Shown: positions 1-26,971 of the stretch, one piece after another
Layout: each line of letters begins with the position of its first letter
Position numbering within the stretch: position 1 is the stretch's first letter
Source of the DNA: Escherichia phage vB_EcoM_G2494
Direction: 5' to 3' (one strand)
DNA: 64,000 bases
Sequence record: MK327935.1
The notes under the pieces: generated by a model
Database searches by the model: none
Told to the model about the DNA's origin: nothing
Seen by the model: only the letters and a program-made list of their open reading frames with translations
Program-made: the position numbers and the translations under genes

Positions 1-2109
1 TTAAAATTTAACATTCTTAACCAGTTTCATAAAGTCTTGTGCGCGTTTGTCGTTATGCAGAATACGATACCAGTTATCTACAATATCATACAGTAACGGG
101 CTATTCTCTTTAAACTTCGCACAAACTGCTTTAATTCGTTCGTTTGCTGCCGTGAATTTTTCATCACAGATCTTTTTAGTTTCTTCGTCCATAATCCAAC
201 GAGTACGAAGGAGTAACTTGGAAACCTCTTTATTATAATGACGACCGTACAGTCTGTCAATAAATTCTGGAACACAGCGTTCTAGTTCATCGTCATGAAA
301 CAACATAGTGATCACACCCAGATATTCGCCATACCCCAGATGATTGGTCTTAACCTTCTTAGCCAGACCAGCCAGCTTACCGCGAACAAATTCTAGCGCA
401 CATTCCAATTGTTCGTCAACGAGATATTTTTGTGTCTCATTACGGGTAATAATATACTTTGTTACCCCGAAGTAGTCAAGCGCCGTGTGTAATGTATTTT
501 CATTATAGATCGATTGACGGCTACGGCTTTCGAATGCATCACCCACTCGGAACATGTGCAAGCCTGATAACTCGCGAATCTCTGCCGCTTTCATGTGATG
601 GCTGGTTTTATGCCAACTGTCACCAATCTTTTCCATGATATACACGTTAGGCAGCTTGGGAGTAGCTTCACGTTGTGTACGCTCGGTCTTCTCCGGCTTA
701 ACTGCTTTAGCACGCAGATCATCGGCCTCTGATACCTTAATCACGGTCATTTCAGAATCATCATAATACTGTTTGATGTACTCGAAAGTCTCCATATGTT
801 TTTCGTTTTTCTGACGGAACACCAGTACCTTTTTATTGATGCCGTATTCCTGGACCATGCCGTTAAGAGTCAGTGCACGCAGTTTCGGTTTATCGGTATC
901 ATCAATAAGACACGTAATATCTTCTTTATGCATCCATACAAAATGCGTAATGTTGTATTGACTGCTAACGAAAGCAGGGCGCAATTTACTGATTGTGTGA
1001 CGAGTACGATACAGAGTATACACCTGACCTTCTACGTCATTAGGCGAATCTTTACCCGCATTAACAAACTTATTATAGATTGCTACCGGATCATCCCATT
1101 GTCCGATCTTGCCCATCTTGCTAATAATATTGCGTTGAGTCGATGAATACTCGCTCATAAATTGCGCAAGTTTACGTTCTGTTTTAATGTTGGCGATCTT
1201 TTCTTTAACCTTTTCCAACATCATTTCATTGATTTCTGCAATACGTTTTTCGATGTTCGCTTTAGTCTCAATTGACAAGTGAACTTCTTCACGCGATGGC
1301 ATCAGGTCCAGATCACCCAACTCAAAATTAATGTAAATGGTCTGGTGCTGGCGGTTTACAGCTTCTAACCATGTTCCGCGAACATATTCATACGGGATCG
1401 GATACTGGATCTTACCCATGATTGCATATACCACATAGGAATCGTTATCACGCCCATTACAAACATAATAATTATCAAAGCTAGGGAAATAATTAATTTC
1501 GATTGCATTGATATTAGGTTTGTGTTCCCCAAAATGACGCAGTACAAATTGTGCTTCTCGATGCCATGTCTGAATGTCTTTTTCTTTCACCGGAATAGTG
1601 ATTTTCAGACCATTGTCTTCATAGGTCGGTTCGTCGAAAATCTGCACCATTTTCGGCATAGAGTTTTGCACGAATGCAGTAAAACCATAAGCGCGACCAT
1701 TGTAATAGTTCACGATTGTAAAGGTGTCGGTGTAGCTATAAGCAGATTTCGCACCCAAACCAAAAGATCCGATATAATCATTAGTTTGGTCTTTTGTTGA
1801 TTCAAAGTAAACCGTAAACAGTTGTTCTAATTCTTTCTTAGACGGAATACCCGTACCATAATCACGCACAGAAAAATACGGTTCGATTGCAGTCGGTAAA
1901 TGAATATCAAACGGACGATCTAAGGTTCCGGCTTCTTTGTGAGTGTCGGTAGCATTGCATGAATACTCACGGACGCAAGCACGCTCACAATATTGATAAG
2001 TGTTCTTAGAAAGCACCATAAAAGCCTTGCTACTTGCTTTCAGTGAAAAATCAACCGCACCGCTCAGGTCACTGCCAAATACTTCTTCATTATCGATATG
2101 CATTTTCAT
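1..2109 (-). CDS. rIIA: rIIA protein (GHKL-type ATPase-like N-terminal domain)
   Basis: 702-aa ORF; N-terminal motifs RDYGTGIP and GSFGLGAKS typical of rIIA/GHKL fold; length and position next to gene 39 match T4 rIIA; stop codon at window positions 1-3, so complete. Confidence 0.8.
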   Translation of the reverse strand: MKMHIDNEEVFGSDLSGAVDFSLKASSKAFMVLSKNTYQYCERACVREYSCNATDTHKEAGTLDRPFDIHLPTAIEPYFSVRDYGTGIPSKKELEQLFTVYFESTKDQTNDYIGSFGLGAKSAYSYTDTFTIVNYYNGRAYGFTAFVQNSMPKMVQIFDEPTYEDNGLKITIPVKEKDIQTWHREAQFVLRHFGEHKPNINAIEINYFPSFDNYYVCNGRDNDSYVVYAIMGKIQYPIPYEYVRGTWLEAVNRQHQTIYINFELGDLDLMPSREEVHLSIETKANIEKRIAEINEMMLEKVKEKIANIKTERKLAQFMSEYSSTQRNIISKMGKIGQWDDPVAIYNKFVNAGKDSPNDVEGQVYTLYRTRHTISKLRPAFVSSQYNITHFVWMHKEDITCLIDDTDKPKLRALTLNGMVQEYGINKKVLVFRQKNEKHMETFEYIKQYYDDSEMTVIKVSEADDLRAKAVKPEKTERTQREATPKLPNVYIMEKIGDSWHKTSHHMKAAEIRELSGLHMFRVGDAFESRSRQSIYNENTLHTALDYFGVTKYIITRNETQKYLVDEQLECALEFVRGKLAGLAKKVKTNHLGYGEYLGVITMLFHDDELERCVPEFIDRLYGRHYNKEVSKLLLRTRWIMDEETKKICDEKFTAANERIKAVCAKFKENSPLLYDIVDNWYRILHNDKRAQDFMKLVKNVKF

Positions 2110-7785: not shown

Positions 7786-8099
7786 TATCCTAAAATCCTC
7801 ACCTTGCGAACACAGATAGTATTGAGTTCTCGCCGTACCCGTTCTTTTTCATATTCAGGAATTTTATATTCGATACCATCCCGAACAATTTCAGAAGACC
7901 GGATTATGCCAAATTTTCGTTTAGGTACAACCTTGTATTTCGGTTCACCCGCCAATAGACTCTCACAATAATCTATCTGATCACACATTGACGCTAACGC
8001 AGCATCATGTGTTTCGCAAGTTAGGACGCGACCTTTCGCGTCCACTGAGTATTGAAAGAATCCGTCTTTATCACGATAACATACAGCAAATACATGCAT
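7785..8099 (-). CDS. hypothetical protein (dda.1 position)
   Basis: 104-aa ORF, start overlaps upstream stop. Confidence 0.45.
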   Translation of the reverse strand: MHVFAVCYRDKDGFFQYSVDAKGRVLTCETHDAALASMCDQIDYCESLLAGEPKYKVVPKRKFGIIRSSEIVRDGIEYKIPEYEKERVRRELNTICVRKVRILG

Positions 8100-8854
8100 T
8101 ATAAACCTACCTTCGCTTTCATCAATTCAATCCACGACGCATCAATCGGAAGCCCGTATTTCACGCGTTCTTTTTGTGCTGGCGTTAAGTTCTCATACTT
8201 AGAAAGAGATTCAATCAAAACGCTGGTATATTTTAGCACGATTTCGGTATTGTTTGCAATAGCCTTAAGTTTTTCCTCTTTCTTGTTGATTTCGCTAAGT
8301 GCTTGCTTGAGATCTGCAATTTTCTGATAACGTTCTTCCATACGGAAGAGAGTATTTTTAATCGCTCGCTCGGCTGCCTCTGCTTTCTCCGGTTCGTTGT
8401 GCTTTTTGTGGCGCTCGATTGCTAATTTCTTTTCTTCGATTGCCATTTCCTGATTTTTGATGCGATTCTCGTTAAGTTCGATCCACTCGATGTACTTCGC
8501 ACGTAGGGCAATTTCATCATCAGAAAGTTTACCTTTAGTTCCCAGTTCCTGGATCTCTTTAAGAGATTCGATAGTGTGATTGCCACGGAAAGAATTGTAT
8601 TTCAGTTTAACCGGAATTACATTGCCATCAACATATCCCAGATTGCAATCAATGCGCTCTAAGGAGAGTCCGTCATCACCTTCACCGAAAGCCTCACCTG
8701 AATAGGCACAATGAGTCTGACGGTAAATGTTACGAACAGTGACTAAGCTCATAGAGAAGTCTTTGTTGCGACGTGAAGCACCAGCCATGATAGAGTTCAG
8801 CCGGAAAACAACCAGCGCCAATTCTTCGTTAGATTTAAAAGCAAACAGTTTCAT
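8099..8854 (-). CDS. hypothetical coiled-coil protein (srd position)
   Basis: 251 aa, charged helical C-terminal half; lies where T4 carries srd but sequence identity not verified. Confidence 0.45.
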   Translation of the reverse strand: MKLFAFKSNEELALVVFRLNSIMAGASRRNKDFSMSLVTVRNIYRQTHCAYSGEAFGEGDDGLSLERIDCNLGYVDGNVIPVKLKYNSFRGNHTIESLKEIQELGTKGKLSDDEIALRAKYIEWIELNENRIKNQEMAIEEKKLAIERHKKHNEPEKAEAAERAIKNTLFRMEERYQKIADLKQALSEINKKEEKLKAIANNTEIVLKYTSVLIESLSKYENLTPAQKERVKYGLPIDASWIELMKAKVGL

Positions 8855-9488: not shown

Positions 9489-10007
9489 TTAGTAGCCGCG
9501 TTCTTGACGGGCGAAGTTTTCAGCATTTTTCAGATAGTACAGCTTGAAGATATCCTTAGCGGTTAAACCTAAGCCCAGCATTTTAATCAGCACAAAATGC
9601 CAGATATCGATCAATTCCATCGCAATTTCGGTTTTATCGTCATCTGACAGATCAGCAAATTTACGCGCTCGTGCTTCGCCGTGGTTCTTCTTCCACACTT
9701 TAGTAATTGCGCTTGCATCTTTGCCATTTGACATGCCACCCAGGGCAACATAAAGTTCTCGTGTCTCGTCGTCGATTGCGTCATCCCACAACTTCATCCA
9801 GTCAAGGATCTCCCCGCAAGTTTCCAGCTTATCAGGATGCATTACCCACTCAAATTTATCAGCTAGTGCGACCTGTAATCCTTTTTGCATATCTAACATT
9901 ACTTGCAGCGGATCTTTACCGCTAGTGATTGCCTCGGAATACGCAATACCAGCTTTAGACATAGTTTCATCATTAACAAGACCAGCACAAGAATTAAATT
10001 CACTCAT
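9489..10007 (-). CDS. 56: dCTP pyrophosphatase (dCTPase/dUTPase, MazG-like)
   Basis: Trimmed to MSEFNS...; PLQVMLDMQ and IFKLYYLKNAENFARQERGY closely match T4 gp56. Confidence 0.85.
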   Translation of the reverse strand: MSEFNSCAGLVNDETMSKAGIAYSEAITSGKDPLQVMLDMQKGLQVALADKFEWVMHPDKLETCGEILDWMKLWDDAIDDETRELYVALGGMSNGKDASAITKVWKKNHGEARARKFADLSDDDKTEIAMELIDIWHFVLIKMLGLGLTAKDIFKLYYLKNAENFARQERGY

Positions 10008-10017
10008 AATAAACCTC

Positions 10018-10581
10018 TCAAATAACATTAAACACTGCAAATTCACCGTGATACTTATACGCATAGTCATTATATACTATTGCGGCGTCTATTTCTAGGT
10101 CAAATTGTCCTATATAGACTTTATTTCCTTCATTGTCCCTTATCTGGGCGACCCATTTACCCGAACGACTATTATAATGCACTCCTTTAAAATTGCTAGT
10201 TTTAGTTTGGTTATTTCTTCTCATATTTTGGGTATTCTGTTTTTGTGTCGCCTCTCTTAAGTTTGGAGGATCGTTGTTTTCTGGATTCCCGTCAATATGG
10301 TCAATGACAGGTGGGCAATACCCATGCTCTAAGAAGAATACTATTCTATGCACAAGCTCAAAATATTGTTTTCCTTCAAAAGAAAATGAGACTTTTAGGT
10401 GTCCGGCTGTGACTTTAGATACCTTTACTATATCACCAACCTTATAAAACTGGCCTTCTTTCGTCGTTCGGCTTGCTTTGCTGTTTGTTTTATGAATCAA
10501 TATACCCCTTTCGTGTCTATATCTTCGACGTATTTCATCCTTTAATTCATCGCTCCATTCTTTGGCTTTCCTTACCCTCAC
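10018..10581 (-). CDS. free-standing HNH homing endonuclease with AP2 DNA-binding domain
   Basis: 187 aa; HNH motif (DHIDGNPENNDPPNLREAT) plus AP2-like domain (KGVHY...GKWVAQI...YIGQF); GTG start with GAGGG SD. Confidence 0.8.
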   Translation of the reverse strand: MRVRKAKEWSDELKDEIRRRYRHERGILIHKTNSKASRTTKEGQFYKVGDIVKVSKVTAGHLKVSFSFEGKQYFELVHRIVFFLEHGYCPPVIDHIDGNPENNDPPNLREATQKQNTQNMRRNNQTKTSNFKGVHYNSRSGKWVAQIRDNEGNKVYIGQFDLEIDAAIVYNDYAYKYHGEFAVFNVI

Positions 10582-10598
10582 AATACAACCCTCATTAA

Positions 10599-11627
10599 TT
10601 AAAATTTACAATATTTCATAAACCGCATTTTAGCCATCAGACCTTGTACGGTGTTCTCTTTGATATATTCCATGATCTGGTCGCGTGTAGCGCCCTCGTC
10701 CTGAATCATGGCGTTAACGTCTTTAGAATGCCACGGGCAGCGATCCCACAAAACAATCTTTTCCCCTGCATTGATAAACTTTTCCAGTCGGTGCATTGTA
10801 TCGGCAGACCGTGGTTCCGCATCAAGTACAAACACTCGCTGATCAGGGAAAGGAATTTCATCTAATCCCAAAGTACCGCCAGTAATTGCACACCCGTTAT
10901 CAATAAACAATGAATCGATCGGACCTTCTAAGAAATACACTGGTTTACTCGGATCGGCGCGTTCAAGACCATAGACCTTACTCGCTAACTCGTGAGTTTT
11001 AATCGTCATATATTTGGTCTTTCCGTAATCCTTTCTCAATGCTCGCCCCTGAATGGATTCTATCTTGTTCTCGCGGTTAAAGATAGGAATCACTAAACGC
11101 GGTTCAGGTTGTGGATTCTTGAAAGTATCAGCCTTAATGTGATTTGCTACCTTTTGCCATTCTCTCGTGAAATACAGAAGATCCCATTTATCGTGGGGAA
11201 TGCAACGATCACTGACATACTTTATTATAGGATGATTAGCCGGAAGAGTATCTAACCTCTCGCAGAAAGGCAATGTTTGCACTTTCTTAATCTCCGGCTT
11301 TTCTACCTTTTTCAATGGCTTGAACGTGGTGTTCTTGTGGTCGCCTTGTTCCTTCCGTCGTTCCATAAGCCATTCCCTGAATAGGTCCGGCTTATACTGT
11401 TTGAGAAATTCACCTAACGGCTGATTGTAGTTACAGTTGAAACAGCCGCAACGCAAACTATCCTTATAGGTATAGATACGGAATCGCGCTTGAGTATGAT
11501 TTTTCTTTGAGTCACCGCAGATCGGACAACTACAGACCAGCGTAAATGAGCTAGTATGCAACCGTTTAAAATTTCGTTCGCCGTATATGGCTTTTTCCGC
11601 TATTTCATAATCTGCGTAGTAAATCAT
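10599..11627 (-). CDS. 61: DNA primase
   Basis: 342 aa; zinc-binding CPICGDS...CFNC and collinear similarity with T4 gp61. Confidence 0.9.
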   Translation of the reverse strand: MIYYADYEIAEKAIYGERNFKRLHTSSFTLVCSCPICGDSKKNHTQARFRIYTYKDSLRCGCFNCNYNQPLGEFLKQYKPDLFREWLMERRKEQGDHKNTTFKPLKKVEKPEIKKVQTLPFCERLDTLPANHPIIKYVSDRCIPHDKWDLLYFTREWQKVANHIKADTFKNPQPEPRLVIPIFNRENKIESIQGRALRKDYGKTKYMTIKTHELASKVYGLERADPSKPVYFLEGPIDSLFIDNGCAITGGTLGLDEIPFPDQRVFVLDAEPRSADTMHRLEKFINAGEKIVLWDRCPWHSKDVNAMIQDEGATRDQIMEYIKENTVQGLMAKMRFMKYCKF

Positions 11628-11636
11628 AATAACCTC

Positions 11637-11840
11637 TTATAGCTCAAATTTCATGAAAGTTCCTACACTTTCATTTTCATTCTCTCCGTTCTCATCTAAG
11701 CCAAATTTGTAGACACTACCATCTGGCGATGTGTAAGAGAATACACGAAAACGGCCTACCGGGTCAAGTTCTGTAAATTCATATTCTTTTCCGGCTTCAA
11801 AAAGTGCATATGTGCTTTTAAGACATTTCATCGTAATCAT
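11637..11840 (-). CDS. hypothetical protein
   Basis: 67-aa ORF upstream of gene 61. Confidence 0.45.
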   Translation of the reverse strand: MITMKCLKSTYALFEAGKEYEFTELDPVGRFRVFSYTSPDGSVYKFGLDENGENENESVGTFMKFEL

Positions 11841-11972
11841 TTAAGCGCCACCGATGAGAACATGATAATAATACCAGCATACATAACAGTCTCAGAAATT
11901 TTTCTGTTTTTGTCTTATATCCAGATAGCCCGAAAAAGACAACACCTGAACCCGATAATGAATACAATAAAA

Positions 11973-12149
11973 CTAACCATTGTCTTTCTCCTTCTTGCGT
12001 TTTTCTTTACCCACTACGCTAGGTCCACGATTGGTAATAGATCCGCTCGTTTCACCTGCTGCGATCTTCTCAGGATTGCCGCCAGCATCGCCAGCGGTCA
12101 TATCTTCTTTGAGTTTATTTTCTTCAACAAACTGTTTAAATCCAATCAT
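11973..12149 (-). CDS. hypothetical small Gly/Lys-rich protein
   Basis: ~58-aa ORF not in the supplied table; ATG overlaps upstream stop (ATGA); low-complexity, so doubtful. Confidence 0.3.
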   Translation of the reverse strand: MIGFKQFVEENKLKEDMTAGDAGGNPEKIAAGETSGSITNRGPSVVGKEKRKKEKDNG

Positions 12150-13239: not shown

Positions 13240-14652
13240 TTAGAAAGTCATGGTATTTGCTAGCTCGTCGAGTTTTTCGCGTTTCTCGGCTTGCTGTGCG
13301 CTTTGTGGTTTAACTTGTGCATTCTCCTGATCTGCGATCTGGTTTGGGACTTCATACCAACGCTGATTGCCTTTCTTCACACCAACGTTAAACCGTGAAT
13401 AATAGTTCTTATCACCGTAACGAGACTTGATCTGCTTCATGAGTTGGACGCCCATTTTAGCCAGGTCTTCGGTTTCGATAACACCCAACATAAAGTCGGC
13501 AGTAGCCGGAAGACCTGCTGATTCAGCGGTATCACTCATGTTAAGGTCGGAAGCATCCCAACCCGCGCGGGTAGTCTGTGCCGCAGTCCAACCAACAACA
13601 TCCCACTTAACAAAAAATCCTCGCAGTTCTTCCGCAATCGCCTTAACTAGTGTGTAACTATTTTCAGAGTATACACGCAAGCGAGACGATGCGCAAATCC
13701 CCAGATAGTCAACAATCACAACATCAGGTTTAAACTGTTTCTTGAGTCGCAATTCATTCATTAACGCCTCAAAGTGATTGGAGTTCGCGCCACCAGTCGG
13801 ATACTGCTTGATCATCAATTTTCCAACCGGACGATCTCCGATCTTCTTATTCTTAACACGCTTCATACGTGCGGAATATTCCGCAAAAGAAACATTACCA
13901 TTATCCAATTCATCTAATGTAATGTCAAGCAAGTTTGCGTCGATACGTTTGGCTACGACATGCTCTGCCATCTCCATTGAGATATACAATACATCATAAC
14001 CACATTCCATATAATCCGCAGCAAGAGAACACAATCCAAGCGATTTACCAACGTTTACACCAGCAAGCAACACATTTAGCGTTTTTCTTTCCGCCCCTCC
14101 TTTCGTGATTTTATTCAACATCGGCAGCTTAAATGGGATCTTATTCGCCTTAGTCTGATATAACAGGAATCGTTTTTCAAAGTCATTAAACCAGTCATGA
14201 CCTACATCAGAATCAAACGTAATGGATAGTGCTTCCTGCATGATCTCAGGAATAGCACCCTCACTCGGCAATTTCTTATTCTGTTTCTCTTTTGGTAGTT
14301 GTGCGTTCGCCTGAATCTCTAGCGCCCGTGACATTGCATTATACATGGCACGGTCACGAATAAATTTTTCGGTTTCCTTCATTAACCAATCAAGGTCTTC
14401 CGGTGTATTCTCCAGCGAATCGAGAAGAGTTTTAGCCCCTTCATATGTTGTCTGATTGCCTCTCTCCTTGTCTAAAGCAATCTGTAATGCTGTTGGCGTA
14501 GGAATATTGGAATATTCGTCTACGTGCTTTTTAATCAGCTTATAAATCAGTTTTTCTTCGTCTTCGGTGAAGTAGTCCGCTTTAAGGTGAGGCCATACAT
14601 TCGTAAAGAATGCGCCATTGTAAATCAACTGTGAAAAGATAGTTTTAATCAT
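13240..14652 (-). CDS. 41: replicative DNA helicase (DnaB family)
   Basis: 470 aa; Walker A GVNVGKS, RecA-like core and strong collinearity with T4 gp41. Confidence 0.92.
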   Translation of the reverse strand: MIKTIFSQLIYNGAFFTNVWPHLKADYFTEDEEKLIYKLIKKHVDEYSNIPTPTALQIALDKERGNQTTYEGAKTLLDSLENTPEDLDWLMKETEKFIRDRAMYNAMSRALEIQANAQLPKEKQNKKLPSEGAIPEIMQEALSITFDSDVGHDWFNDFEKRFLLYQTKANKIPFKLPMLNKITKGGAERKTLNVLLAGVNVGKSLGLCSLAADYMECGYDVLYISMEMAEHVVAKRIDANLLDITLDELDNGNVSFAEYSARMKRVKNKKIGDRPVGKLMIKQYPTGGANSNHFEALMNELRLKKQFKPDVVIVDYLGICASSRLRVYSENSYTLVKAIAEELRGFFVKWDVVGWTAAQTTRAGWDASDLNMSDTAESAGLPATADFMLGVIETEDLAKMGVQLMKQIKSRYGDKNYYSRFNVGVKKGNQRWYEVPNQIADQENAQVKPQSAQQAEKREKLDELANTMTF

Positions 14653-25862: not shown

Positions 25863-26443
25863 TTTAGTTTATGTTCCTCTAAAAATTCTTCAATTTCACC
25901 TTGCAGATCTTCCGCTTGTTGTTCCAGAATATCGCGAAATTCACCTACAGTCAAGCGGTAATCACATTTCACCAGTCGATGCGGGAGAATATACCCTTTA
26001 TACATTGTCTCTGACGCTTCCAGGAATACCCCACTATGCATGACAGAGATCCAACCTGTTAGCGTCAATGGAGTATTCGGAAAATAATACTTGCTGGATT
26101 GTTTCCACTGGACGAAAGCACCATATACAATCGGATTATATTCACCAACCACACTCTTAATAATGGATTCTACTTTGTCTTTTACAAAGTCGCCAATGTC
26201 CATAGTTATCATCAACTCTTTTGGATTAATGATTTTAAGGTAACGACGGTAGCCGTCATCATACCACATCTTAACAACTGACCGATCAATATTCGCTTTC
26301 AGATAGCCATAGATCGGATTCTTGTAATATGATTGTTTTAGTGTGTACGCGTGCACCAATTCAATAAAATATTCCATTGCTACCGAATCAGGATCAGCCG
26401 CGACCATAGTCGTATTCATAATATGTTCCTCGTTCAATTTCAT
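25859..26443 (-). CDS. hypothetical protein (46.2 position)
   Basis: 194-aa ORF between genes 47 and 46. Confidence 0.5.
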   Translation of the reverse strand: MKLNEEHIMNTTMVAADPDSVAMEYFIELVHAYTLKQSYYKNPIYGYLKANIDRSVVKMWYDDGYRRYLKIINPKELMITMDIGDFVKDKVESIIKSVVGEYNPIVYGAFVQWKQSSKYYFPNTPLTLTGWISVMHSGVFLEASETMYKGYILPHRLVKCDYRLTVGEFRDILEQQAEDLQGEIEEFLEEHKLK

Positions 26444-26711
26444 ATTGTTTCAGGTCTTCTAAAAGTTCATCCACTGCTTGTTTCAGTGTATGGCGTAGCG
26501 TAAAGTAATAGCTTTCATCAAATTCTATTTCCGCGCGAGGAATAGAGCGAAACTTGCACTTAACGGTAGTATCAGTGAGTCGCTTTTCGACCATCATCCG
26601 AACTTCTTCATGCTCTTTGGAATACCATACATCAACGGAGATCCCCTTGCGTCGAGCAAACATAGGCAATGCCGCATTAAATTCCATTACCTTTTGTGCA
26701 AGTGTTTTCAT
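26394..26711 (-). CDS. hypothetical protein
   Basis: 105-aa ORF. Confidence 0.4.
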   Translation of the reverse strand: MKTLAQKVMEFNAALPMFARRKGISVDVWYSKEHEEVRMMVEKRLTDTTVKCKFRSIPRAEIEFDESYYFTLRHTLKQAVDELLEDLKQYEIERGTYYEYDYGRG

Positions 26712-26971
26712 CGTACAGACTCCATAGACCCACGAGCAATAACATTCTGGGTAATATCAGCAACCTTACGAGATACGATGTTTGTTAGCCCATCTTTGGT
26801 GATATTTTCACGATCAAATGGGATTTCGTCATGAGTCCACAAACCATAGTTAGATCGAAATGATAGCATATACTGACCATCTCGCACAACCTCGAATACA
26901 TGGATCTTAGTGAATTTCGATAAACCTTCGTTGATTTCTTTCAGTGCATTAGTAATCATAACAACCTCCAA
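26708..26971 (-). CDS. hypothetical protein
   Basis: 87-aa ORF. Confidence 0.4.
   Translation of the reverse strand: MEVVMITNALKEINEGLSKFTKIHVFEVVRDGQYMLSFRSNYGLWTHDEIPFDRENITKDGLTNIVSRKVADITQNVIARGSMESVR

What the first reader, a model, noticed from the sequence alone, without database searches (positions are those of the whole stretch)
10018..10581. Free-standing HNH-AP2 homing endonuclease between genes 56 and 61
A 187-aa ORF combines an HNH nuclease motif with an AP2-type DNA-binding domain and sits between dCTPase gp56 and primase gp61, an interval that holds the homing endonuclease segF in T4. This suggests a recurrent insertion hotspot occupied here by a different endonuclease family. 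It appears to use a GTG start with a good SD.
Basis: partly seen in the sequence, partly recalled or inferred. Interest (0 to 1): 0.5.

Follow-up and report, generated by a model that had tools for sequence, protein, structure and literature searches.

The report
Optional HNH-AP2 homing endonuclease gene
A small selfish nuclease gene of an already catalogued phage family sits between the primase and dCTPase genes of this RB49-like phage. Most close relatives lack it, so it is an ordinary mobile insertion, with a useful sequence clue to where it probably cuts.

Summary
Window 10018..10581 (-) is an intact 187-aa ORF with a GTG start and a GAGGG Shine-Dalgarno sequence. It has an N-terminal HNH_3 nuclease domain and a C-terminal AP2 DNA-binding domain, and lies between gp61 primase and gp56 dCTPase of a Krischvirus (RB49-like) phage.

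It is an optional 577-bp insertion. Seven of 55 Krischvirus records carry it; 48 have a clean 14-nt 61-56 spacer. All 15 carriers examined have it intact at the same site, with mostly synonymous polymorphism.

Eight substitutions separate all 15 carriers from all 5 aligned non-carriers. They sit in 43 nt just downstream of the insertion (spacer plus the first 13 codons of gene 56), and the carrier version appears only in carrier records. This fits a co-converted or cleavage-resistant target region, but no cleavage was tested.

The T4 analogy is wrong in detail. T4 segF lies between 56 and soc; the T4 61-56 interval holds dam. Two other T4-like genera show no endonuclease gene at that junction, so a recurrent hotspot is not supported.

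HNH-AP2 homing endonucleases in RB49-group phages were described in 2004-2010, and near-identical copies are already annotated as "homing endonuclease". This is a new member of a known kind, of modest interest.

The parts
10018..10581 (-). HNH-AP2 homing endonuclease ORF (187 aa, GTG start, TGA stop)
   Evidence: Intact 564-nt ORF in all 15 carriers.
10231..10356 (-). HNH_3 nuclease domain (aa 76-117). D94-H95 and N116 align with the 'DH' and the 'tqkiN' Asn of I-HmuI.
   Evidence: Pfam 9e-14. phmmer alignment to 1u3e. D94, N107-L108-R109 and N119 invariant, H95 and N116 >=90% conserved.
10045..10194 (-). AP2 DNA-binding domain (aa 130-179)
   Evidence: Pfam 6.8e-7, below the gathering score. 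PDB AP2/ERF hits. Foldseek TM 0.79, rmsd 1.5 A to AtERF1 1gcc.
10013..10589 (-). The 577-bp insertion relative to endonuclease-free relatives. Boundaries are ambiguous by 4 nt because GAGG is present at both ends (10590..10593 and 10014..10017).
   Evidence: Junction comparison with MIZ6 and RB49 and with 15 carriers and 5 non-carriers. GC dips to 0.34-0.38 against 0.44-0.47 in the flanks.
10589..10593 (-). Shine-Dalgarno GAGGG used by the endonuclease gene. Its GAGG is the pre-existing Shine-Dalgarno sequence of gene 56 in empty alleles.
   Evidence: sequence read directly.
10014..10019 (-). Replacement Shine-Dalgarno GAGAGG for gene 56, supplied by the 3' end of the insertion and overlapping the endonuclease TGA stop
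   Evidence: sequence read directly.
9969..10011 (-). Tract of 8 substitutions fixed between all 15 carriers and all 5 aligned non-carriers (spacer plus codons 2-13 of gene 56). Candidate target, immunity or minimal co-conversion region.
   Evidence: The carrier version is found at 100% only in the 7 carrier records of 55. No fixed difference in gene 61.
9489..10007 (-). Gene 56 (dCTPase), downstream neighbour and probable target gene
   Evidence: 51% identity to T4 gp56. PHROG 173. RB49 annotation.
10599..11627 (-). Gene 61 (DNA primase), upstream neighbour. Its last ~120 nt are identical in carriers and non-carriers.
   Evidence: 51% identity to T4 gp61. PHROG 47 at 1.8e-90. 0/119 mismatches.
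10069..10097 (-). Sigma-70-like promoter match (TAGAAA-17-TATAAT) inside the 3' end of the endonuclease gene, upstream of gene 56. A consensus match only.
   Evidence: 13 matches in the region against 7.2 expected, so weak evidence.

Best explanation
This is a free-standing homing endonuclease gene of the HNH-AP2 class, carried as a promoter-less 577-bp cassette in the gene 61 -> gene 56 transcription unit of a Krischvirus phage.

**Shown.**
- The protein has an I-HmuI-type HNH (beta-beta-alpha-metal) nuclease domain with the Asp-His and Asn residues conserved, followed by an AP2 DNA-binding domain.
- The gene is optional: about 13% of sequenced relatives have it, always at the same nucleotide position. 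The rest have an uninterrupted 14-nt spacer.
- The ORF is intact and under purifying selection in all carriers.
- The insertion takes over the old Shine-Dalgarno sequence of gene 56 for itself and supplies a new one for gene 56.

**Inferred.**
- In a cell co-infected by a carrier and a non-carrier phage, the enzyme nicks or cuts the non-carrier DNA at or near the 61/56 junction and the first ~45 nt of gene 56.
- Recombinational repair from the carrier genome then copies in the endonuclease gene together with the adjacent start of gene 56.
- The carrier's own copy is spared because the insertion splits the site, and because 8 mostly synonymous substitutions in 43 nt recode the start of gene 56.
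For: - **Domains and fold:**
- **Presence/absence at one exact site:** 7 of 76 megablast records span the insert, and the others give a 1722-1725-nt span, i.e. the 14-nt spacer. 55 records have the two genes adjacent. Junctions were read.
- **Same context everywhere:** the exact protein is indexed in 45 blocks of public assemblies, and all 10 places shown have 61 | gene | 56. No remnants or ectopic copies were found.
- **Purifying selection:** 10 synonymous against 3 non-synonymous polymorphic codons. All 3 non-synonymous changes are singletons outside both domains. All 15 ORFs are intact.
- **Low diversity:** nucleotide diversity among carriers is 0.003-0.005 in the element against 0.01-0.05 in most flanking windows.
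- **Mosaic backgrounds:** carriers sit in different flanking haplotypes that are shared with non-carriers.
- **Linked substitutions:** 8 fixed differences confined to 9969..10011 and none on the gene 61 side. Linkage is complete in 55 records.
- **Composition:** GC dip over the insert.
- **Relatives:** the closest (48-51% identity) occupy other intergenic sites beside replication genes, rpbA|45 and downstream of gene 39, as expected of free-standing homing endonuclease genes.
- **Literature:** the family is described for RB49-group phages.
Against: - No nuclease activity, cleavage site or preferential inheritance has been measured for this protein. None was found in the papers searched for any HNH-AP2 endonuclease of a T4-like phage.
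- T4-like phages recombine so freely that the low-diversity block and the mosaic backgrounds could arise from one old insertion followed by ordinary recombination.
- The 43-nt tract could simply be the remainder of the donor's gene 56 allele, not an immunity patch.
- Free-standing T4 endonucleases often cut hundreds of bp from their gene, so the real site may lie elsewhere.
- The Pfam AP2 score is below the gathering threshold.
- IMG/VR added only 3 empty sites and no filled one.
Confidence: 0.75

Rival explanations
1. It is a homing-endonuclease-derived gene that is no longer mobile: a single old insertion inherited vertically and reshuffled by ordinary phage recombination. It may be retained because its 3' end now carries the Shine-Dalgarno sequence, and perhaps a promoter, of essential gene 56.
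For: - Only one insertion site and one sequence type are known.
- The Shine-Dalgarno sequence of gene 56 lies inside the insert, and a sigma-70-like match sits in its 3' end. Edgell et al. note that such embedding favours retention.
- General mosaicism is seen across the whole 10-kb region.
Against: - Catalytic residues are intact, and the 10:3 synonymous to non-synonymous ratio indicates selection on the protein itself.
- Diversity is lowest in the element, which suggests a recent common origin, not an old insertion.
- No decayed copies were found.
Confidence: 0.12
2. The gene is ancestral to Krischvirus and has been deleted precisely in most lineages. It is a loss polymorphism, not an insertion.
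For: Presence/absence data alone cannot give direction.
Against: - Two other T4-like genera have 61 and 56 adjacent without it.
- 48 non-carriers in two gene 56 allele classes about 30% divergent from each other share the identical 14-nt spacer and gene 56 start. That would require the same precise deletion many times over, or deletion before the classes diverged.
- The insert has a lower GC content than its flanks.
- Carrier diversity is very low.
Confidence: 0.04
3. The protein's main role is not its own homing. It may be a sequence-specific nuclease or DNA-binding protein used against co-infecting phages or satellites, or a regulator of gene 56 or gene 61 expression acting through the AP2 domain.
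For: - Homing endonuclease domains are known to be co-opted in phage-satellite conflicts, and AP2 domains became transcription factors in plants (Barth et al. 2023).
- The gene lies directly over the translation-initiation region of gene 56.
Against: - Nothing in the sequence distinguishes this from standard homing.
- The gene is dispensable in 87% of relatives.
- The architecture is the canonical HNH-AP2 homing type.
Confidence: 0.08

Closest known systems
HNH-AP2 homing endonuclease class (Magnani et al. 2004; Wuitschick et al. 2004), including RB49ORF040c and the JSE, RB43 and RB16 copies listed by Nolan 2006 and Petrov 2010
   Same: The same two-domain architecture (N-terminal HNH_3, C-terminal AP2), the same phage group, and free-standing intergenic location.
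   Different: It is only 42-47% identical to the copies elsewhere in Krischvirus genomes and 48-51% to its nearest relatives in the large protein collection. It occupies a different site (61|56), which is empty in RB49, Phi1 and JSE, the genomes those papers covered. The window has no paralogue.
I-HmuI (PDB 1u3e), intron-encoded HNH nicking endonuclease of Bacillus phage SPO1
   Same: It is the best structural and sequence match for the N-terminal two-thirds. The DH...N...N motif is conserved. By analogy it probably nicks one strand.
   Different: I-HmuI is encoded in a group I intron and ends in a helix-turn-helix domain (from established knowledge). This protein is intron-less and ends in an AP2 domain. 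The whole-chain superposition is poor (TM 0.40).
T4 SegF (GIY-YIG), the homing endonuclease next to gene 56 in T4
   Same: It is a free-standing, promoter-less cassette adjacent to gene 56. SegF targets gene 56 of T2 and causes its exclusion. Here the polymorphisms linked to the endonuclease gene also lie in gene 56.
   Different: It belongs to a different nuclease family (GIY-YIG against HNH). segF lies downstream of gene 56, between 56 and soc, not upstream between 61 and 56. There is no sequence relationship.
T4 MobA and MobE (free-standing HNH endonucleases)
   Same: They have an HNH nuclease fused to a C-terminal DNA-binding region, are intergenic, depend on upstream promoters, and nick their targets. 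mobA is also predicted to start at GUG.
   Different: Their C-terminal domains are not AP2, and their sites and targets differ (nrdB, gene 39).
ICP1 'IPA-HNH' endonucleases (Barth et al. 2023)
   Same: They are HNH plus AP2 phage homing endonuclease genes that sit at boundaries of recombination blocks. Here the two gene 56 allele classes begin to diverge within a few nt of the end of the tract linked to the endonuclease gene.
   Different: IPA-HNH domains are too divergent to hit Pfam HNH_3. This protein hits HNH_3 at 9e-14.

Membership tests
Free-standing homing endonuclease gene | Encodes a nuclease of a recognised homing endonuclease family with catalytic residues intact | tested here: met
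   HNH_3 at 9e-14. I-HmuI is the best PDB match by sequence and by fold. D94 invariant, H95 and N116 >=90% conserved.
Free-standing homing endonuclease gene | Optional: present or absent at the same site in otherwise collinear relatives | tested here: met
   7 of 55 Krischvirus records carry it and 48 have a 14-nt spacer. Junctions are identical in 15 carriers.
Free-standing homing endonuclease gene | Intergenic, not inside an intron or intein, and co-oriented with conserved neighbours | tested here: met
   It lies between the gene 61 stop and the gene 56 start, on the same strand. Both neighbour ORFs are uninterrupted.
Free-standing homing endonuclease gene | The enzyme cleaves or nicks the endonuclease-free allele at a specific site | not testable with these tools
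   This needs an in vitro cleavage assay on RB49 or MIZ6 junction DNA.
Free-standing homing endonuclease gene | Super-Mendelian inheritance with co-conversion of flanks in mixed infection | tested here: inconclusive
   The evidence is indirect only: a low-diversity block in mosaic backgrounds and a 43-nt tract in complete linkage. It is compatible with homing, and also with one insertion followed by ordinary recombination.
Free-standing homing endonuclease gene | The carrier allele is protected from cleavage (site split or polymorphic) | tested here: inconclusive
   The insertion splits the junction, and 8 substitutions (7 silent or non-coding, 1 Ser->Asn) recode the spacer and codons 2-13 of gene 56. 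Whether these overlap the recognition site is unknown.
HNH-AP2 class | N-terminal HNH domain followed by a C-terminal AP2 domain in one polypeptide | tested here: met
   HNH at aa 76-117 and AP2 at aa 130-179. AP2 is confirmed by PDB hits at 5e-8 to 4e-4 and by fold, TM 0.79 to 1gcc, although the Pfam score of 29.9 is below the 33.3 cut-off.
HNH-AP2 class | The AP2 domain binds DNA | not testable with these tools
   This needs EMSA or footprinting.
T4 SegF / seg (GIY-YIG) family | GIY-YIG catalytic domain | tested here: not met
   Pfam, PHROG and PDB hits are all to HNH or AP2, with no GIY-YIG hit.
T4 SegF / seg (GIY-YIG) family | Insertion between gene 56 and soc | tested here: not met
   T4 order is 61-dam-56-segF-soc. 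Here the gene is between 61 and 56, and a modB-like gene follows 56.
I-HmuI-type intron-encoded HNH endonucleases | Encoded within a group I intron of the target gene | tested here: not met
   The gene is intergenic. Genes 61 and 56 are continuous ORFs colinear with T4 homologues.

The most novel reading that the evidence does not exclude
The 43-nt recoded start of gene 56 (window 9969..10011) and the split 61/56 junction mark the recognition or cleavage site of this enzyme. The same break point would have generated the boundary between the two ~30%-divergent gene 56 allele classes of Krischvirus. That would make this the first HNH-AP2 endonuclease of a T4-like phage with a defined target, one that overlaps the translation-initiation region of a conserved nucleotide-metabolism gene. 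It would also be a natural example of an endonuclease gene sitting at a boundary of genetic exchange. A bolder extension is that the AP2 domain also binds the gene 56 initiation region in the carrier phage and modulates its expression.
Probability: 0.3. Interest if true: 0.45.

Novelty: new member of a known kind. Interest (0 to 1): 0.3.

Why it matters
- **A ready experimental system.** It provides a clean natural system for testing an HNH-AP2 homing endonuclease. Isolated carrier phages (AV108, KFS-EC, ELT3, phiS, TB34) and near-isogenic non-carriers (MIZ6 and MIZ2/3, about 98.6% identical in the flanks) already exist.
- **A specific prediction.** There is a specific 43-nt candidate target and immunity tract to test. 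I found no biochemical characterisation of a T4-like phage member of this class in the papers searched.
- **A corrected premise.** The T4 comparison is set right: segF lies on the other side of gene 56.
- **Limits.** Beyond these points it is an ordinary selfish element that GenBank records already annotate as a homing endonuclease.

Tried and rejected
- **IMG/VR junction scans.** The empty junction was found in 3 contigs and the filled junction in none. There are too few Krischvirus contigs to add frequency information.
- **Translational control by RNA structure.** The fold around the endonuclease ribosome-binding site is not significant (z = -1.3).
- **Own late promoter.** The nearest TATAAATA is more than 8 kb away. 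The cassette therefore looks promoter-less. The sigma-70-like hits are consensus matches only.
- **Paralogues in the window.** None were found.
- **Remnants or ectopic copies in other phages.** There are none. Only a 74-nt HNH-motif match to paralogues turned up.
- **Word-indexed protein search.** It returned only 12 relatives. That was enough for an alignment but not for a family census.
- **Hotspot idea.** It was tested in T4 (dam occupies the interval), a Slopekvirus-like phage and a Jiaodavirus. No endonuclease gene lies between 61 and 56 in any of them.
- **Second endonuclease gene in TB34 and SAP.** The gene upstream of gene 61 is unrelated apart from the HNH motif, so it is not a duplicate of this one.
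- **Papers not held.** Magnani 2004 and Belle 2002 are not in the library. They are cited only through papers that cite them.

Full report
**1. What is there**

The window is the left part of an RB49-like (Krischvirus, Straboviridae) genome. Its coordinates nearly coincide with those of RB49.

On the minus strand the gene order is:
- gene 41 (13240..14652)
- several small ORFs
- gene 61 primase (10599..11627)
- the ORF in question (10018..10581)
- gene 56 dCTPase (9489..10007)
- a modB-like ADP-ribosyltransferase
- srd
- a dda.1-like gene
- dda

. gp61 and gp56 are each 51% identical to their T4 namesakes.

The ORF is 187 aa and starts at GTG, 7 nt after GAGGG. It ends in a TGA that overlaps a GAGAGG motif lying 6 nt before the gene 56 ATG.

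The GTG start is supported in three ways:
- Four GenBank annotations use the same frame.
- The N-terminus is conserved in homologues.
- No alternative start lies upstream of the HNH motif.

**2. What the protein is**

- Pfam gives HNH_3 (9e-14, aa 76-117) and AP2 (6.8e-7, aa 130-179; 29.9 bits against a 33.3-bit cut-off).
- PHROG 99 'HNH endonuclease' scores 4e-44.
- Against PDB sequences, the C-terminal part hits plant AP2/ERF domains (WRI1 5e-8, ERF096 1e-4, AtERF1 2e-4). The N-terminal part hits the homing endonuclease I-HmuI (1.2e-5).
- An AlphaFold model built on a 13-sequence alignment has mean pLDDT 85.7.
- Foldseek against the PDB ranks I-HmuI first (E 2e-5). It superposes the C-terminal domain on the AtERF1 GCC-box-binding domain at TM 0.79 and rmsd 1.5 A.
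- In the phmmer alignment the motif 'viDHiDGNpeNN..NLR..tqkqN' lies over 'vvDHkDGNkdNN..NLR..tqkiN' of I-HmuI. D94 is invariant, and H95 and N116 are conserved in at least 90% of the homologues.
- From memory of the I-HmuI literature, not tested here, these residues correspond to the metal-binding Asp/Asn and the general-base His.

**3. It is an optional insertion**

- A 2.3-kb query across the locus matched 76 phage records. Only 7 span the ORF: phiS, ELT3, KFS-EC (two records), AV108, TB34 and SAP. In the others the two flanks are joined with a span that leaves a 14-nt spacer.
- A synthetic 'empty-site' query shows 55 records with genes 61 and 56 adjacent.
- Read in the sense direction, the empty site is ...AAATTTTAATTAATGAGG|TGAATATGTCAGAATTT...
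- The filled site is ...TTAATGAGG|GTTGTATTGTG...(endonuclease gene)...TTTGAGAGGT|TTATTATGAGTGAATTT....
- The insert is 577 bp (10013..10589), with GAGG at both ends.
- The old Shine-Dalgarno sequence of gene 56 now serves the endonuclease gene. The insert brings a new Shine-Dalgarno sequence for gene 56.
- The nearest TATAAATA is more than 8 kb away, no terminator-like site lies within the insert, and no significant hairpin covers the ribosome-binding site. It therefore looks like the promoter-less cassettes described for segF, mobE and others in T4.
- GC content falls to 0.34-0.38 over the insert, against 0.44-0.47 on either side.

**4. Population evidence**

- The exact protein is indexed in 45 blocks of public assemblies. 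In all 10 places shown it lies between gene 61 and gene 56.
- No decayed or ectopic copy was found by sensitive blastn.
- I aligned 15 carrier alleles and 5 non-carriers over 6.5 kb.
- All 15 ORFs are intact. Thirteen codons are polymorphic: 10 synonymous and 3 non-synonymous. All three non-synonymous changes are singletons in the N-terminal 36 residues.
- My own arithmetic, under the crude assumption that a quarter of random changes are silent, puts the chance of such an excess at about 1e-4. The protein is therefore under purifying selection.
- Nucleotide diversity among carriers is 0.003-0.005 in the element and 0.01-0.05 in most flanking windows.
- Polymorphic codons make up 7% in the endonuclease gene, 13% in gene 56 and 30% in gene 61.
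- Outside the block, carriers fall into different haplotypes that they share with non-carriers.
- This fits a recently spread element. Because T4-like phages recombine freely, it does not prove homing.

**5. The clue to the target**

Eight positions are fixed between all 15 carriers and all 5 non-carriers. All lie in window 9969..10011, that is, the 61-56 spacer and codons 2-13 of gene 56. None lies in gene 61, whose last ~120 nt are identical in everything compared.

| Codon change | Effect |
|---|---|
| TCA->AGT | Ser, all three bases changed |
| CTG->CTT | Leu, silent |
| AGC/AAC->AAT | Ser/Asn->Asn |
| GAC/GAA->GAT | Asp/Glu->Asp |

- The non-carriers belong to two gene 56 allele classes that differ by 25-35% over the rest of the gene. 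Even so, they share the identical junction and first ~39 nt.
- A 60-nt query of the carrier version finds 100% matches only in the 7 carrier records. It finds none in the 48 non-carrier Krischvirus records.
- The divergence between the two allele classes begins within a few nucleotides of the end of this tract.
- My reading is an inference. The tract is either the minimal stretch that must be co-converted between the break and the endonuclease gene, or a patch that makes the carrier resistant, or both. The enzyme's site then lies at the junction or in the first ~50 nt of gene 56.
- The triple change TCA->AGT is more easily explained by import from a diverged donor allele than by stepwise mutation.

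**6. Comparison with what is known**

- HNH-AP2 homing endonuclease genes were defined by Magnani et al. and Wuitschick et al. in 2004.
- They were reported in RB49 (RB49ORF040c) and RB43 by Nolan et al. 2006.
- Petrov et al. 2010 tabulated them for RB49 (1), JSE (2), RB43 (3) and RB16 (6).
- Barth et al. 2023 describe a divergent HNH+AP2 group in ICP1 and the tendency of such genes to sit at recombination boundaries.
- The present gene is 42-47% identical to the copies found elsewhere in Krischvirus genomes.
- It is 48-51% identical to its nearest relatives, which sit between rpbA and gene 45 and downstream of gene 39 in other T4-like contigs.
- RB49, Phi1 and JSE have the 61-56 site empty.
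- GenBank already labels the same gene 'homing endonuclease' or 'HNH endonuclease' in ELT3, AV108, SAP, TB34 and phiS. KFS-EC leaves it unannotated.
- It is therefore a new member of a known kind, not a new kind.

**7. The T4 analogy**

- In T4 the order is 61 - dam - 56 - segF - soc. Edgell et al. give the segF insertion site as soc/56 and its target as gene 56.
- SegF is responsible for exclusion of T2 gene 56.
- A Slopekvirus-like Klebsiella phage has 61 and 56 separated by 7 nt. A Jiaodavirus has 61-(276 nt)-56-soc. Neither has an endonuclease gene there.
- The 'recurrent hotspot' idea for this interval is not supported.
- What remains is that gene 56 is flanked by unrelated homing endonucleases in two genera, on opposite sides.

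**8. Verdict**

- The mechanism (cleavage near the start of gene 56, repair-mediated copying, immunity by recoding) is the best-supported inference but remains untested.
- Interest is modest, because the family, the architecture and even this gene's annotation are already public.

Noticed in passing
window 11628..11636 (empty here); L012 6236..6799 (TB34); L019, L021, L022 at 1384..1950: Some carriers (TB34, SAP and three metagenome contigs) have a second, unrelated 184-187-aa NUMOD4 + HNH_3 endonuclease gene immediately upstream of gene 61. In those phages the primase gene is bracketed by two different homing endonuclease genes. It shares only the HNH motif with the gene studied here.
   Followed up: partly
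window ~11480..11627 (first ~150 nt of gene 61): The 5' end of gene 61 is very polymorphic among carriers (13-44 differences per 150 nt). The divergent versions occur in phages with the second endonuclease gene, and also in AV108 and L024, which lack it. This may be a co-conversion footprint of that other element.
   Followed up: partly
window 9489..~9965 (gene 56 body): Gene 56 exists in two allele classes that are 25-35% divergent at the DNA level. One class comprises the window, MIZ6, Makalu and SSG23; the other comprises RB49 and FL37. The divergent block runs from about nt 40 of the gene to its stop codon, while flanking DNA is more than 97% identical.
   Followed up: partly
whole window; RB49 26386..26928: The window has no paralogue of the HNH-AP2 gene. 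RB49 carries one at 26.4 kb (RB49ORF040c), and W115, JSE and others carry one near 3.2 kb. The complement of homing endonuclease genes therefore differs between Krischvirus isolates.
   Followed up: no
window 8099..8854 (-), Srd-like ORF: Besides PHROG 1400 'Srd anti-sigma factor' (7e-74), this protein hits PHROG families named HNH endonuclease, endonuclease and endonuclease VII (2e-12 to 6e-5) over aa 20-170. This hints that Srd contains a His-Me-finger-like region.
   Followed up: no
window 11632..12117: This stretch (small ORFs between gene 61 and the dc1-like gene) differs by about 6-14% from all ten phages compared, carriers included. The window has its own allele here.
   Followed up: no
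window 9489..10070 (-): The mechanical ORF list extends gene 56 to an ATG at 10070, which would overlap the endonuclease gene by 53 nt. Comparison with T4 and RB49 shows the real start is ATG 10007.
   Followed up: yes
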